From positions 7,688,001 through 7,752,000 of the forward strand of contig OZ024757.1 in assembly GCA_964016885.1 (NCBI GenBank): a DNA stretch of 64,000 bases, written 5' to 3'. Origin of the DNA: Eledone cirrhosa (lineage: Eukaryota). A program made the position numbers and the translations under genes. Each line of letters starts with the position of its first letter. The stretch's first letter is position 1. Positions 40,646-64,000 of this stretch are shown piece by piece. The notes beneath the pieces are model-generated. The model was not told the DNA's origin, ran no database searches, and saw only the letters and a program-made list of their open reading frames with translations.

Positions 40646-40871
40646 ATGTCGGAGCCAAAAAAGCGCCGCGGCTTTCTCCGAAGATGTGCTGAAAGGGCCC
40701 GACGGCTTGCTGAGTCCGTCTGCCCGTGCTATCGTGACAAACGTCGCCGACGACGACAAAAGAAGCAGGAACAATATAATATAACACCTATCGATCCTGC
40801 ACCTCAGACTGTGGAGTTTCCAACAGCCACAGCGAATGTTAATGAATCGCACACAATCGATATGCAGCCTG
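40646..40871 (+). CDS. Putative first coding exon of an uncharacterised repeat-protein gene (MSEPKKRRGFLRRCAERARRLAESVCPCYRDKRRRRRQKK...DMQP)
   Basis: GC-rich open frame in AT-rich surroundings, ATG in ataATG context, ends G|GTAAGT. Its 226 nt give phase 1, matching all downstream mini-exons. Confidence 0.65.
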
Positions 40872-40884
40872 GTAAGTTATAATT

Positions 40885-58000: not shown

Positions 58001-61000
58001 CTGACGCTTCATATTTGTCTTCTCGAAGTGCAACACTCAAGACCAAACTTTCCGAAAAGAGTAAGTTATTAATTTAAAATTATCTATTAATTATTCAGAA
58101 ACTTATTTATGTTTTGATCAGTAAATGTATAACTACTTATTTCAGTCAAGAATATTATATTACAATCTCCCTAACATAATCAAGGATAAACATTTTATTG
58201 ACCTTGATCCTTAGAGACATTACAATGAGGTCAAAAGTAAAGATACACTTTTTCAGGCTATTATCAGAGTTATCTATGAAAAAATGACATTTCTGGTTAA
58301 AAAGAGAAGATGAATGTTGCACAAGATACTTTGAGGTAGATGGAATAATCTCACAGATCAGAGTTCTCATCTTTAACAAAATTTCCTCCGACACTTCTTC
58401 ACTATTTCAGGTCTTCCTTCGTTGTTCATACTCCTTATCCTCGTATGACTAGATCAGCTATTGCTCTACATATTTGGTTATCCCATCATATATATTTGTT
58501 CTTTATGCACATATCGAAACTACCATATTTGTCTCATAATTCCAGACAGCCCATATATAACTAAATGGGTCTAGGTAATTCAAAATACAACGTCTTATTC
58601 TAACATTTCTTCAAATTGATAACAAACTCTTCCCAAGAAAAGCTTCTTGCATTCCTATTATTTTCTTCCATATTTCTTCCAGTTATTTCACCTGTAGAGA
58701 ACCTTGTCTCTCAGCCAGGCATAACAATAGACACTGTCTCCAACGAACGTAAGTTTTATTTCAAACACACTTTCTATTAGTCTGTACAGAGAACTATGAC
58801 ACGTATTTCAACATTAATGTCAAATCGAGATTACATCATATATTTGTAAACATGAAAGTCTACATATTGTGTATGCTGGAACTGATGAATAAAATAGTGT
58901 GTATATATATATATAAGTGAAGTCATGCTAGTGTTTTGCGTATGTTGATCTGTACATATATGTATATTGGGTTGTATATAACATTAACGAGTAACAGTTT
59001 GTGTGTGTTTCTCCGTTGGTTTGGTGGCTTTTTGAGTGTGTGAACCATGTGTGTGCGTGTGTGACTGTGAGATTCTGTGTACACACACGGTATGCGTGTG
59101 TATGTAAGAATACATTTTAGTTATAACGACTGTTATCAAGATTAGAGAAAATTCAGTAGTAAATGTATATTTACGAGGAAGCTAAGACGCCGTGTTCCTA
59201 TATATATATATATATATATATATATATATATATATATATATATATATATATATATATATATATATATATATATATATATATATATATATATATATATATA
59301 TATATATGTATATATATATATTTGGTAAGGACATGGTAACTTGTTTCTTTATGTGTTCGGACCTGGTGTATTTATCAGTATATCAGAGATAATGAATCTA
59401 ATAACTGTTTTCTGTATTTGTAATATAAATTTGTATATATATAGATACAGTTTTACTATTATTTTGTTTATGTTTTCTAGCTGACGCTTCATATTTGTCT
59501 TCTCGAAGTGCAACACTCAAGACCAAACTTGCCGAAAAGAGTAAGTTATTAATTTAAAATTATCTATTAATTATTCAGAAACTTATTTATGTTTTGATCA
59601 GTAAATGTATAACTACTTATTTCAGTCAAGAATATTATATTACAATCTCCCTAACATAATCAAGGATAAACATTTTATTGACCTTGATCCTTAGAGACAT
59701 TACAATGAGGTCAAAAGTAAAGATACACTTTTTCAGGCTATTATCAGAGTTATCTATGAAAAAATGACATTTCTGGTTAAAAAGAGAAGATGAATGTTGC
59801 ACAAGATACTTTGAGGTAGATGGAATAATCTCACAGATCAGAGTTCTCATCTTTAACAAAATTTCCTCCGACACTTCTTCACTATTTCAGGTCTTCCTTC
59901 GTTGTTCATACTCCTTATCCTCGTATGACTAGATCAGCTATTGCTCTACATATTTGGTTATCCCATCATATATATTTGTTCTTTATGCACATATCGAAAC
60001 TACCATATTTGTCTCATAATTCCAGACAGCCCATATATAACTAAATGGGTCTAGGTAACTCAAAATACAACGTCTTATTCTAACATTTCTTCAAATTGAT
60101 AACAAACTCTTCCCAAGAAAAGCTTCTTGCATTCCTATTATTTTCTTCCATATTTCTTCCAGTTATTTCACCTGTAGAGAACCTTGTCTCTCAGCCAGGC
60201 ATAACAATAGACACTGTCTCCAACGAACGTAAGTTTTATTTCAAACACACTTTCTATTAGTCTGTACAGAGAACTATGACACGTATTTCAACATTAATGT
60301 CAAATCGAGATTACATCATATATTTGTAAACATGAAAGTCTACATATTGTGTATGCTGGAACTGATGAATAAAATAGTGTGTATATATATATATAAGTGA
60401 AGTCATGCTAGTGTTTTGCGTATGTTGATCTGTACATATATGTATATTGGGTTGTATATAACATTAACGAGTAACAGTTTGTGTGTGTTTCTCCGTTGGT
60501 TTGGTGGCTTTTTGAGTGTGTGAACCATGTGTGTGCGTGTGTGACTGTGAGATTCTGTGTACACACACGGTATGCGTGTGTATGTAAGAATACATTTTAG
60601 TTATAACGACTGTTATCAAGATTAGAGAAAAATCAGTAGTAAATGTATATTTACGAGGAAGCTAAGACGCCGTGTTCCTATATATATATATATATATATA
60701 TATATATATATATATATATATATATATATATATATATATATATATATATATATATATATATATATATATGTATATATATATATTTGGTAAGGACATGGTA
60801 ACTTGTTTCTTTATGTGTTCGGACCTGGTGTATTTATCAGTATATCAGAGATAATGAATCTAATAACTGTTTTCTGTATTTGTAATATAAATTTGTATAT
60901 ATATAGATACAGTTTTACTATTATTTTGTTTATGTTTTCTAGCTGACGCTTCATATTTGTCTTCTCGAAGTGCAACACTCAAGACCAAACTTGCCGAAAA

Positions 61001-64000
61001 GAGTAAGTTATTAATTTAAAATTATCTATTAATTATTCAGAAACTTATTTATGTTTTGATCAGTAAATGTATAACTACTTATTTCAGTCAAGAATATTAT
61101 ATTACAATCTCCCTAACATAATCAAGGATAAACATTTTATTGACCTTGATCCTTAGAGACATTACAATGAGGTCAAAAGTAAAGATACACTTTTTCAGGC
61201 TATTATCAGAGTTATCTATGAAAAAATGACATTTCTGGTTAAAAAGAGAAGATGAATGTTGCACAAGATACTTTGAGGTAGATGGAATAATCTCACAGAT
61301 CAGAGTTCTCATCTTTAACAAAATTTCCTCCGACACTTCTTCACTATTTCAGGTCTTCCTTCGTTGTTCATACTCCTTATCCTCGTATGACTAGATCAGC
61401 TATTGCTCTACATATTTGGTTATCCCATCATATATATTTGTTCTTTATGCACATATCGAAACTACCATATTTGTCTCATAATTCCAGACAGCCCATATAT
61501 AACTAAATGGGTCTAGGTAATTCAAAATACAACGTCTTATTCTAACATTTCTTCAAATTGATAACAAACTCTTCCCAAGAAAAGCTTCTTGCATTCCTAT
61601 TATTTTCTTCCATATTTCTTCCAGTTATTTCACCTGTAGAGAACCTTGTCTCTCAGCCAGGCATAACAATAGACACTGTCTCCAACGAACGTAAGTTTTA
61701 TTTCAAACACACTTTCTATTAGTCTGTACAGAGAACTATGACACGTATTTCAACATTAATGTCAAATCGAGATTACATCATATATTTGTAAACATGAAAG
61801 TCTACATATTGTGTATGCTGGAACTGATGAATAAAATAGTGTGTATATATATATATAAGTGAAGTCATGCTAGTGTTTTGCGTATGTTGATCTGTACATA
61901 TATGTATATTGGGTTGTATATAACATTAACGAGTAACAGTTTATGTGTGTTTCTCCGTTGGTTTGGTGGCTTTTTGAGTGTGTGAACCATGTGTGTGCGT
62001 GTGTGACTGTGAGATTCTGTGTACACACACGGTATGCGTGTGTATGTAAGAATACATTTTAGTTATAACGACTGTTATCAAGATTAGAGAAAAATCAGTA
62101 GTAAATGTATATTTACGAGGAAGCTAAGACGCCGTGTTCCTATATATATATATATATATATATATATATATATATATATATATATATATATATATATATA
62201 TATATATATATATATATATATATATATGTATATATATATATATTTGGAAAGGACATGGTAACTTGTTTCTTTTTGTGTTCGGACCTGGTGTATTTATCAG
62301 TATATCAGAGATAATGAATCTAATAACTGTTTTCTGTATTTGTAATATAAATTTGTATATATATACATACAGTTTTACTATTATTTTGTTTATGTTTTCT
62401 AGCTGACGCTTCATATTTGTCTTCTCGAAGTGCAACACTCAAGACCAAACTTGCCGAAAAGAGTAAGTTATTAATTTAAAATTATCTATTAATTATTCAG
62501 AAACTTATTTATGTTTTGATCAGTAAATTTATAACTACTTATTTCAGTCAAGAATATTATATTACAATCTCCCTAACATAATCAAGGATAAACACTTTAT
62601 TGACCTTGATCCTTAGAGACATTACAATGAGGTCAAAAGTAAAGATACACTTTTTCAGGCTATTATCAGAGTTATCTATGAAAGAATGACATTTCTGGAT
62701 AAAAAGAGAAGATGAATGTTGCACAAGATACTTTGAGGTAGATGGAATAATCTCACAGATCAGAGTTCTCATCTTTAACAAAATTTCCTCCGACACTTCT
62801 TCACTATTTCAGGTCTTCCTTCGTTGTTCATACTCCTTATCCTCGTATGACTAGATCAGCTATTGCTCTACATATTTGGTTATCCCATCATATATATTTG
62901 TTCTTTATGCACATATCGAAACTACCATATTTGTCTCATAATTCCAGACAGCCCATATATAACTAAATGGGTCTAGGTAATTCAAAATACAACGTCTTAT
63001 TCTAACATTTCTTCAAATTGATAACAAACTCTTCCCAAGAAAAGCTTCTTGCATTCCTATTATTTTCTTCCATATTTCTTCCAGTTATTTCACCTGTAGA
63101 GAACCTTGTCTCTCAGCCAGGCATAACAATAGACACTGTCTCCAACGAACGTAAGTTTTATTTCAAACACACTTTCTATTAGTCTGTGCAGAGAACTATG
63201 ACACGTGTTTCAACATTAATGTCAAATCGAGATTACATCATATATTTGTAAACATGAAAGTCTACATATTGTGTATGCTGGAACTGATGAATAAAAGAGT
63301 GTGTATATATATATATAACTGAAGTCATGCTAGTGTTTTGCGTATGTTGATCTGTACATATATGTATATTGGGTTGTATATAACATTAACGAGTAACAGT
63401 TTGTGTGTGTTTCTCCGTTGGTTTGGTGGCTTTTTGAGTGTGTGAACCATGTGTGTGCGTGTGTGACTGTGAGATTCTGAGTACACACACGGTATGCGTG
63501 TGTATGTAAGAATACATTTTAGTTATAACGACTGTTATCAAGATTAGAGTAAATTCAGTAGTAAATGTATATTTACGAGGAAGCTAAGACGCCGTGTTCC
63601 TATATATATATATATATATATATATATATATATATATATATATATATATATGTATATATATATATTTGGTAAGGACATGGTAACTTGTTTCTTTTTGTGT
63701 TCGGACCTGGTGTATTTATCAGTATATCAGAGATAATGAATCTAATAACTGTTTTCTGTATTTGTAATATAAATTTGTATATATATACATACAGTTTTAC
63801 TATTATTTTGTTTATGTTTTCTAGCTGACGCTTCATATTTGTCTTCTCGAAGTGCAACACTCAAGACCAAACTTGCCGAAAAGAGTAAGTTATTAATTTA
63901 AAATTATCTATTAATTATTCAGAAACTTATTTATGTTTTGATCAGTAAATTTATAACTACTTATTTCAGTCAAGAATATTATATTACAATCTCCCTAACA
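49050..64000. repeat. Tandem macrosatellite, unit ~1421-1480 bp, about 10.5 near-identical units, continuing past the window end
   Basis: Landmark positions (A-exon starts) at 49429, 50850, 52277, 53706, 55131, 56568, 58001, 59481, 60943, 62403 and 63825. Period differences come mainly from the internal (TA)n. Confidence 0.97.
49429..63884 (+). CDS. Alternating A (60 nt) and B (66 nt) mini-exons within the array, encoding a 42-aa repeat
   Basis: A exons (ttttctag|...|GTAAGT): 49429-49488, 50850-50909, 52277-52336, 53706-53765, 55131-55190, 56568-56627, 58001-58060, 59481-59540, 60943-61002, 62403-62462, 63825-63884. B exons (ttcttccag|...|GTAAGT): 50111-50176, 51532-51597, 52959-53024, 54388-54453, 55812-55877, 57250-57315, 58683-58748, 60163-60228, 61625-61690, 63085-63150. 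All are phase 1-1 and stop-free. Confidence 0.7.

What the first reader, a model, noticed from the sequence alone, without database searches (positions are those of the whole stretch)
40646..63884. Hidden gene whose coding sequence is being expanded by a macrosatellite of symmetric mini-exons
Seen: what looks like non-coding satellite carries two exons per unit (60 and 66 nt), with canonical acceptors, GTAAGT donors, phase 1-1 and no stops. Diverged older copies (44940, 45902, 46833, 48333) keep exact lengths, splice sites and open frames, which argues for selection on coding. Splicing from the 40646 exon gives a basic N-terminus, four diverged repeats, then at least 10 copies of [17 protein letters not shown][A/S][25 protein letters not shown] do not recognise the protein. 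Inference: a lineage-specific, probably disordered Ser/Thr-rich protein. Its length could vary by unequal crossover and by frame-preserving exon skipping.
Basis: partly seen in the sequence, partly recalled or inferred. Interest (0 to 1): 0.8.

Follow-up and report, generated by a model that had tools for sequence, protein, structure and literature searches.

The report
Multicopy orphan gene built from mini-exons
What looks like satellite DNA is one of 17 copies of a likely protein-coding gene in an octopus-type genome, built from dozens of tiny in-frame exons copied along with their introns; it would make a long floppy protein of variable length, possibly in the male germline, but splicing has not been seen.

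Summary
The observation mostly holds. A 226-nt ATG exon (40646-40871) is followed by 60- and 66-nt phase 1-1 exons repeated in a ~1.43-kb macrosatellite. Past the window, the gene has 84 exon-like copies (71 with intact splice sites) and a terminal exon near 115.4 kb; all-in it would give 1,581 aa.

Exon 1 has 17 genomic copies. The older ones are on C28, probably the Z chromosome; six young ones are on C18. Three near-identical copies carry 46, 84 and 90 exon-like units.

Coding signal is strong across the family. Stops occur in 1 of 99 intact exons in the predicted frame, against 31-90 in other frames. Disruptions cluster in copies with broken splice sites. But residues are not conserved: exons diverge about twice as fast as introns, with dN/dS near or above 1. 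The youngest units look neutral.

Splicing was not shown and no credible homologue was found. The architecture is known (DAZ, SmPoMuc, Argiope MaSp2, NBPF). The scan noted similar arrays in other genes of this genome, but not this family.

The parts
40646..40871 (+). First coding exon E1 (75 codons + 1 nt): basic helix - Cys-Pro-Cys - basic helix, then low-confidence tail; phase-1 donor
   Evidence: ATG position and donor kept in all 17 copies, a 6-nt in-frame deletion in 6, one copy with a stop, one frameshifted
40403..40863 (.). Stretch covered by one 509-nt contig (depth 10.4) of run X4, whose kind is not on record; it stops 8 nt before the E1 donor
   Evidence: table 8
44369..44428 (+). 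Decayed A-type exon copy (in-frame stop, donor lost)
44940..45005 (+). Diverged B exon, 66 nt, CAG/GTAAGT
45902..45967 (+). Diverged B exon, 66 nt, CAG/GTAAAT
46833..46892 (+). Diverged A exon, 60 nt, TAG/GTAAGT
47526..47591 (+). B copy with open frame but no GT donor (GAAAAT); the matching copy in the C18:9.38 Mb paralog has a donor
48333..48398 (+). Diverged B exon, 66 nt, CAG/GTAAGA
49049..64000 (+). Macrosatellite, unit about 1.42-1.48 kb with a variable (TA)n, 96-98% identical units; continues to about 108.6 kb in extended coordinates
49429..49488 (+). First macrosatellite A exon (60 nt); further copies start at 50850, 52277, 53706, 55131, 56568, 58001, 59481, 60943, 62403
50111..50176 (+). 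First macrosatellite B exon (66 nt); further copies start at 51532, 52959, 54388, 55812, 57250, 58683, 60163, 61625, 63085
63825..63884 (+). Last A exon inside the window

Best explanation
This is one copy of a 17-copy, likely protein-coding orphan gene family whose body is a run of symmetric phase 1-1 mini-exons of two old types (A, mostly 60 nt; B, mostly 66 nt), likely amplified with their introns by unequal crossover and gene conversion, and it would encode a long disordered Ser/Thr-rich intracellular protein whose length differs between copies. Shown: the anatomy, the copy number, the different unit numbers and cassettes in different paralogs, the retention of frame and splice sites, and the faster divergence of exons than introns. 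Inferred: because every exon is symmetric, any gain, loss or skip of a unit keeps the frame, so arrays grow and shrink freely, and a copy that loses its donor drops out of the mRNA and decays. Conversion likely homogenises introns while exon differences persist. The two basic helices around Cys-Pro-Cys likely anchor the protein (membrane through acylation, or nucleus), and the tail with recurrent S/T-P motifs likely works as a phosphorylatable spacer whose bulk matters more than its sequence. The family likely arose on C28, the probable Z chromosome, with a recent amplification on C18. A male-germline role is my best guess (about 0.4) and is untested.
For: Stops in frame 1 of 99. Disruptions in 4 of 99 intact against 7 of 18 splice-broken distinct copies, Fisher p=1.5e-4 (optimistic, related copies). 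Intact exon lengths 48-78 nt are multiples of 3 in 96 of 99. About 13-19 nonsense changes expected from tree length, 1 seen in that sample, in a penultimate exon. 0 indels in 702 exon sites against 38 in 6030 intron sites. Splice positions are the most conserved (0.3-6% against 10-17% in introns). The terminal exon has an in-frame stop two codons in, as TAA or TAG, in 8 of 8 older copies. 16 of 17 E1 copies have a same-strand terminal exon 51-224 kb downstream. 46, 84 and 90 exon-like units in three near-identical copies. No hydrophobic segment, S+T 27%. Two N-terminal helices predicted. C28 follows the size-sorted C1-C27 and holds a WD40_2 exon that I recall as JIP3/SPAG9, a gene on the coleoid Z. 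All C18 copies fall in one young clade, 100/99.
Against: No spliced joint was among the 15 shown of 283. No purifying selection on residues: dN/dS 1.0 (A) and 1.5 (B) pooled, N against S not different from neutral. In the 63 youngest units exon and intron variant densities are alike (0.175 against 0.139, p=0.31) and one stop occurs, so the window's own array cannot be shown to be selected. 13 of 84 exon-like copies in this gene are splice-broken. Two paralogs have a broken E1, one young copy has an early stop in an intact A exon and another copy a stop in a late exon. The RH1 exon of JIP3 lies on unplaced C1420, not on C28; the tree root is midpoint only. Function rests on composition and analogy.
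Confidence: 0.72

Rival explanations
1. The family was coding, but the window's young array is a neutral passenger. An exon pair from a once-selected gene is being amplified as satellite in recent, partly dead segmental duplicates, and its clean exons only reflect youth.
For: Units at 97% or more show exon variant density like introns and N like S; 12 donor-less B copies were amplified along with the rest; pseudogene copies exist; no splicing seen.
Against: 0 of 18 splice positions vary and no exon indel occurs in those 63 units (weak, about 2.5 and 1.5 expected). E1, all 71 intact exons and the terminal exon of this copy are open. E1 shows pN 0.024 against pS 0.142 to the next clade. An X4 contig covers E1.
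Confidence: 0.15
2. The array is a diversification device. Exons are skipped or combined by alternative splicing, and exon differences are positively selected, giving many isoforms for recognition (gamete, host-microbe), as in SmPoMuc.
For: All exons symmetric; exons diverge about twice as fast as introns, also without CpG sites (0.133 against 0.066); dN/dS 1.8-3.1 among close pairs; weak and GC donors occur.
Against: N against S is not significant on distinct variants (p 0.48-1.0); synonymous sites also outpace introns, which conversion of introns explains without positive selection; no signal peptide or membrane segment; the central block is nearly one repeated sequence, so skipping changes length rather than content.
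Confidence: 0.1
3. It is a non-coding satellite or mobile element with chance splice-like signals.
For: No credible homologue in five protein searches; repeat-rich surroundings.
Against: Frame-specific stop avoidance, 3n length changes, conserved ATG, donors and terminal stop; copies lie in long segmental duplications and on two chromosomes only; no match of exon profiles to flanking retroelement frames.
Confidence: 0.03

Closest known systems
Schistosoma mansoni SmPoMuc (PMC2576457; passages read)
   Same: Species-specific multigene family, exons about 60 bp, ~1-kb genomic repeats of exon plus introns separated by microsatellites, concerted evolution with exon differences kept, pseudogene copies.
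   Different: SmPoMucs are secreted glycosylated mucins with one 27-bp repeated exon and a constant 3' region. Here there are two exon types, almost no unique C-terminus, no secretion signal and no sequence similarity found.
Argiope MaSp2.1a / MaSp2.2a spidroins (PMC9779670; passages read)
   Same: Core unit of two exons and two alternating homogenised introns; the authors knew of no other eukaryotic example of such alternation.
   Different: Silk is secreted and its repeats are strongly homogenised; here exons vary more than introns and the protein looks intracellular.
Primate DAZ (PMC4983133; one passage read)
   Same: Multicopy sex-chromosome gene with intragenic 2.4-kb repeats, each with a 72-bp exon.
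   Different: DAZ has an RNA-binding RRM (recalled) and an autosomal parent; no domain is found here, and the inferred move is from the probable Z to an autosome.
NBPF / Olduvai (PMC9313022; passages read)
   Same: Repeat unit encoded by an exon doublet, amplified within genes and across a gene family, with higher-order cassettes.
   Different: No Olduvai match in Pfam for E1 (the repeats were not scanned against Pfam); both exons here are under 70 nt and independently symmetric.
Sex-chromosome ampliconic gene families (PMC13616518; search listing and start of abstract only)
   Same: Multicopy genes of 97% or more identity, lineage-specific turnover.
   Different: Testis expression is untested here, Z linkage is indirect, and the youngest copies are mostly on C18.

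Membership tests
Genes with intragenic tandem exon-intron repeats (DAZ, SmPoMuc, MaSp2 type architecture) | Exon plus flanking introns repeated head to tail inside one gene | tested here: met
Genes with intragenic tandem exon-intron repeats (DAZ, SmPoMuc, MaSp2 type architecture) | Repeated exons keep the frame and splice sites | tested here: met
Genes with intragenic tandem exon-intron repeats (DAZ, SmPoMuc, MaSp2 type architecture) | Repeat number differs between gene copies | tested here: met
   46, 84, 90 units; between individuals not tested
Genes with intragenic tandem exon-intron repeats (DAZ, SmPoMuc, MaSp2 type architecture) | Repeated exons are spliced into mRNA | tested here: inconclusive
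   no such joint among 15 of 283 shown; run kind not on record
SmPoMuc / secreted mucins | Signal peptide or membrane anchor for export | tested here: not met
   highest 19-residue hydropathy 0.76; N-terminus basic
DAZ family | RRM domain | tested here: not met
   no Pfam match over cut-off for E1; the other exons found are 20-22-residue repeats; an exon unlike A, B or E1 could have been missed
NBPF / Olduvai | Sequence similarity to the Olduvai domain | tested here: inconclusive
   E1 has no match; spliced repeats were not scanned
Sex-chromosome ampliconic gene family | Multiple copies at 97% identity or more | tested here: met
   7 copies at 99-100% in E1 within long duplications
Sex-chromosome ampliconic gene family | Location on the sex chromosome | tested here: inconclusive
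   10 of 17 copies on C28; order and a recalled SPAG9-like exon point to Z; no male/female coverage test
Sex-chromosome ampliconic gene family | Testis-biased expression | not testable with these tools
   no run on record as RNA, no tissue labels

The most novel reading that the evidence does not exclude
An unannotated, Z-born octopod germline gene family whose protein is almost nothing but spliced mini-exon repeats. Each paralog has amplified a different exon cassette into its own macrosatellite, exon content diversifies faster than the surrounding introns, and a recent jump to an autosome with six-fold amplification marks a sex-chromosome conflict or gamete-compatibility locus.
Probability: 0.2. 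Interest if true: 0.8.

Novelty: new member of a known kind. Interest (0 to 1): 0.5.

Why it matters
It shows that satellite-masked DNA in this genome hides a whole multicopy gene family of up to 224 kb per gene that repeat-masking annotation would likely miss. It adds an example of the alternating two-exon, two-intron repeat that the Argiope authors considered unique. If C28 is the Z and expression is testicular, it would be a candidate ampliconic sex-chromosome family in cephalopods, where four literature searches found none described. The set of 17 paralogs of three ages also allows a direct test of why exons outrun introns in such arrays.

Tried and rejected
RNA: no RNA holder listed for E1 (4 runs, one study, kind not on record). 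In one search run X4 has no cover over several intronic and exon-bearing bins where X1 has cover; this hints at an enriched library rather than whole-genome DNA but proves nothing, and bins holding exons 45902, 46833, 48333, 49429 and 50111 are empty too. A closer look at the A-B junction in reads was not obtained, so splicing stays open.

Homologues: none in the ESM Atlas, the word-indexed protein search or Pfam over cut-off (PEHE at E 0.054 rejected). The profile search of 1.84 billion proteins gave 2 hits, both sums of weak repeat matches (best single stretch 5.9 and 14.4 bits), rejected. Only E1 was used as query in these database searches.

A shared block 10 kb upstream (29800-30440) is a dispersed repeat, not an upstream exon. 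A retroelement origin of the mini-exons was not supported in the 188 kb of flank searched. E1 as an internal exon is unlikely: no AG lies between the T-rich tract and the ATG in any of 17 copies. A strict splice-signal scan missed most exons and was replaced by profile search. Positive selection was not significant. CpG decay alone does not explain the exon excess. JIP_LZII as a Z marker gave no match; L124 and L128 had no PDB match. Earlier findings held nothing for this sequence or place.
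Full report
Setting. The window is G000:C18:7688001-7752000 in a 3.0-Gb genome. Positions above 64000 are extended coordinates from the adjacent 200 kb. That the animal is an octopod is inferred, not tested: it rests on earlier AI notes on this genome and on my recall of octopus-type zinc fingers.

Observation. E1 (40646-40871) is open from an ATG to a phase-1 donor. 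The window holds 27 exon-like copies, 25 with AG and GT.

Whole gene. The array ends at 108592. Three 63-nt phase 1-1 exons follow (111241; 113889 with a GC donor; 114498), then a terminal exon at 115440 and AATAAA at 115646. There are 84 exon-like copies, 71 intact. Including all 71 gives 1,581 residues: 17% Ser, 10% Thr, balanced charge, 30 S/T-P motifs and no hydrophobic segment. A model of E1 from 7 sequences has helices 3-25 and 28-44 broken at Cys-Pro-Cys, with a low-confidence tail (pTM 0.40).

Family. E1 has 17 copies: 10 on C28, 6 on C18, 1 on an unplaced contig. Sixteen have a same-strand terminal exon 51-224 kb downstream. The young copies examined share up to 35 kb upstream and over 25 kb downstream, as far as fetched, so they are segmental duplications. 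Three of them carry 46, 84 and 90 exon-like units in the same outer order with different middles. Older paralogs amplified other cassettes: a six-exon unit of about 3.85 kb at C28:4.55 Mb and a 1,787-bp period at C28:43.25 Mb. All C18 copies and one C28 copy form a clade with 100/99 support inside C28 lineages; the root is midpoint only.

Coding test. Profile search of this gene and parts of five older paralogs gave 187 copies, after dropping overlapping hits, hits under 95 profile positions and one duplicate locus; three further 10-kb loci had no hit. Of 117 distinct sequences, 99 have intact splice sites. Four of these are disrupted, against 7 of 18 with broken sites (p=1.5e-4; the copies are related). 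Two of the four lie in a paralog whose E1 has a stop, and one is in a penultimate exon. Stops fall in the predicted frame in 1 of 99, against 31-90 in the other frames. From exon tree length (67 A and 33 B undisrupted copies) 13-19 nonsense changes were expected. Two more stops in intact exons turned up later in other genes or regions. The terminal exon stops two codons in, as TAA (6) or TAG (2), in 8 of 8 older copies; the young clade reads through.

Against simple conservation. In seven unit pairs, all compared with the first macrosatellite unit, exons differ at 0.155 and introns at 0.073 per site (0.133 and 0.066 without CpG), with 0 and 38 indels; four of the seven are significant alone. 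Pooled dN/dS is 1.0 for A and 1.5 for B, and N against S on distinct variants is not significant. Synonymous sites also outrun introns, in E1 too (pS about 0.19 against 0.03-0.05). In the 63 youngest units exons and introns vary alike. So constraint is on frame and splicing, and it is shown for the family's history, not for the newest units.

Expression. No holder is on record as RNA. Run X4 has one 509-nt contig over 40403-40863, ending 8 nt before the donor; no predicted junction was among the 15 joints shown of 283. Splicing is therefore not shown.

Chromosome. C28 (136 Mb) follows C27 (22 Mb) and precedes small unplaced contigs, as a separately named chromosome would. It holds a WD40_2 exon that I recall as JIP3/SPAG9, and a SPAG9 homologue is in the conserved coleoid Z block (PMC10925132, passages and section 8 read). 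The JIP3 RH1 exon is on unplaced C1420. C28 is probably the Z; no coverage test was possible. Passages of 10.1101/2024.12.09.627507 mention no such family; its supplements were not seen.

Mechanism. Shown: anatomy, copy number, unit-number differences, frame and splice retention. Inferred: unequal crossover and conversion, possibly helped by the (TA)n in each unit as proposed for SmPoMuc; free gain and loss of symmetric exons; decay after donor loss; an anchored disordered phospho-spacer; a male-germline role by analogy with ampliconic families (listing only).

Comparison. It works like SmPoMuc, Argiope MaSp2, DAZ and NBPF in gene architecture (passages; LPA kringle IV-2 is a further analogue, recalled only). 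It is not filed under any of them: no export signal, no RRM, no similarity found. No credible homologue of E1 was found, and searches found no paper on such a cephalopod family in a library that lacks most subscription journals. Earlier notes describe similar mini-exon arrays in other genes of this genome (unchecked), which makes the process look common here.

Verdict. A real, probably coding, unannotated-looking gene family with a known kind of architecture. Confidence 0.72 that this copy is a translated member as described; interest 0.5.

Noticed in passing
G000:C28: The 136-Mb contig C28 sits after the size-sorted chromosomes and holds a JIP3/SPAG9-like exon at 59.36 Mb; probably the Z chromosome.
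   Followed up: partly
window 1-38200: Dense stack of non-LTR retrotransposon copies on both strands, including a 994-codon open frame at 19166-22150 and tandem duplicates (1-4980 against 21544-26550); carried along in the segmental duplications.
   Followed up: no
window 39341-39994: 654-bp (CCA)n-type repeat 650 bp upstream of E1, present with length changes in the young copies examined and in the C28:4.54 Mb copy.
   Followed up: no
L013:4730-6560: A separate ~96-bp tandem repeat inside the intron after the last B exon; longer in the C18:9.38 Mb copy.
   Followed up: no
L014:9500 to L016:3500 (extended 123.5-137.5 kb): About 14 kb of CAC/TAT-rich short-period satellite downstream of the gene, shared by the young copies examined.
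   Followed up: no
L013:9889-9951 and L059:9497-9562: Mini-exons with GC donors (GCAAGT) that keep length and frame.
   Followed up: partly
G000:C28:44234282 and C28:34244883: Terminal-exon matches with no E1 match found upstream: truncated copies or missed first exons.
   Followed up: no
G000:C28:45210021 (-) and C28:45247072 (+): Two close paralogs in divergent orientation 37 kb apart, suggesting an inverted duplication or palindrome.
   Followed up: no
L025:2987-4210 (-): 408-codon C2H2 zinc-finger frame with 13 fingers, about 110 kb downstream of the gene's end.
   Followed up: partly
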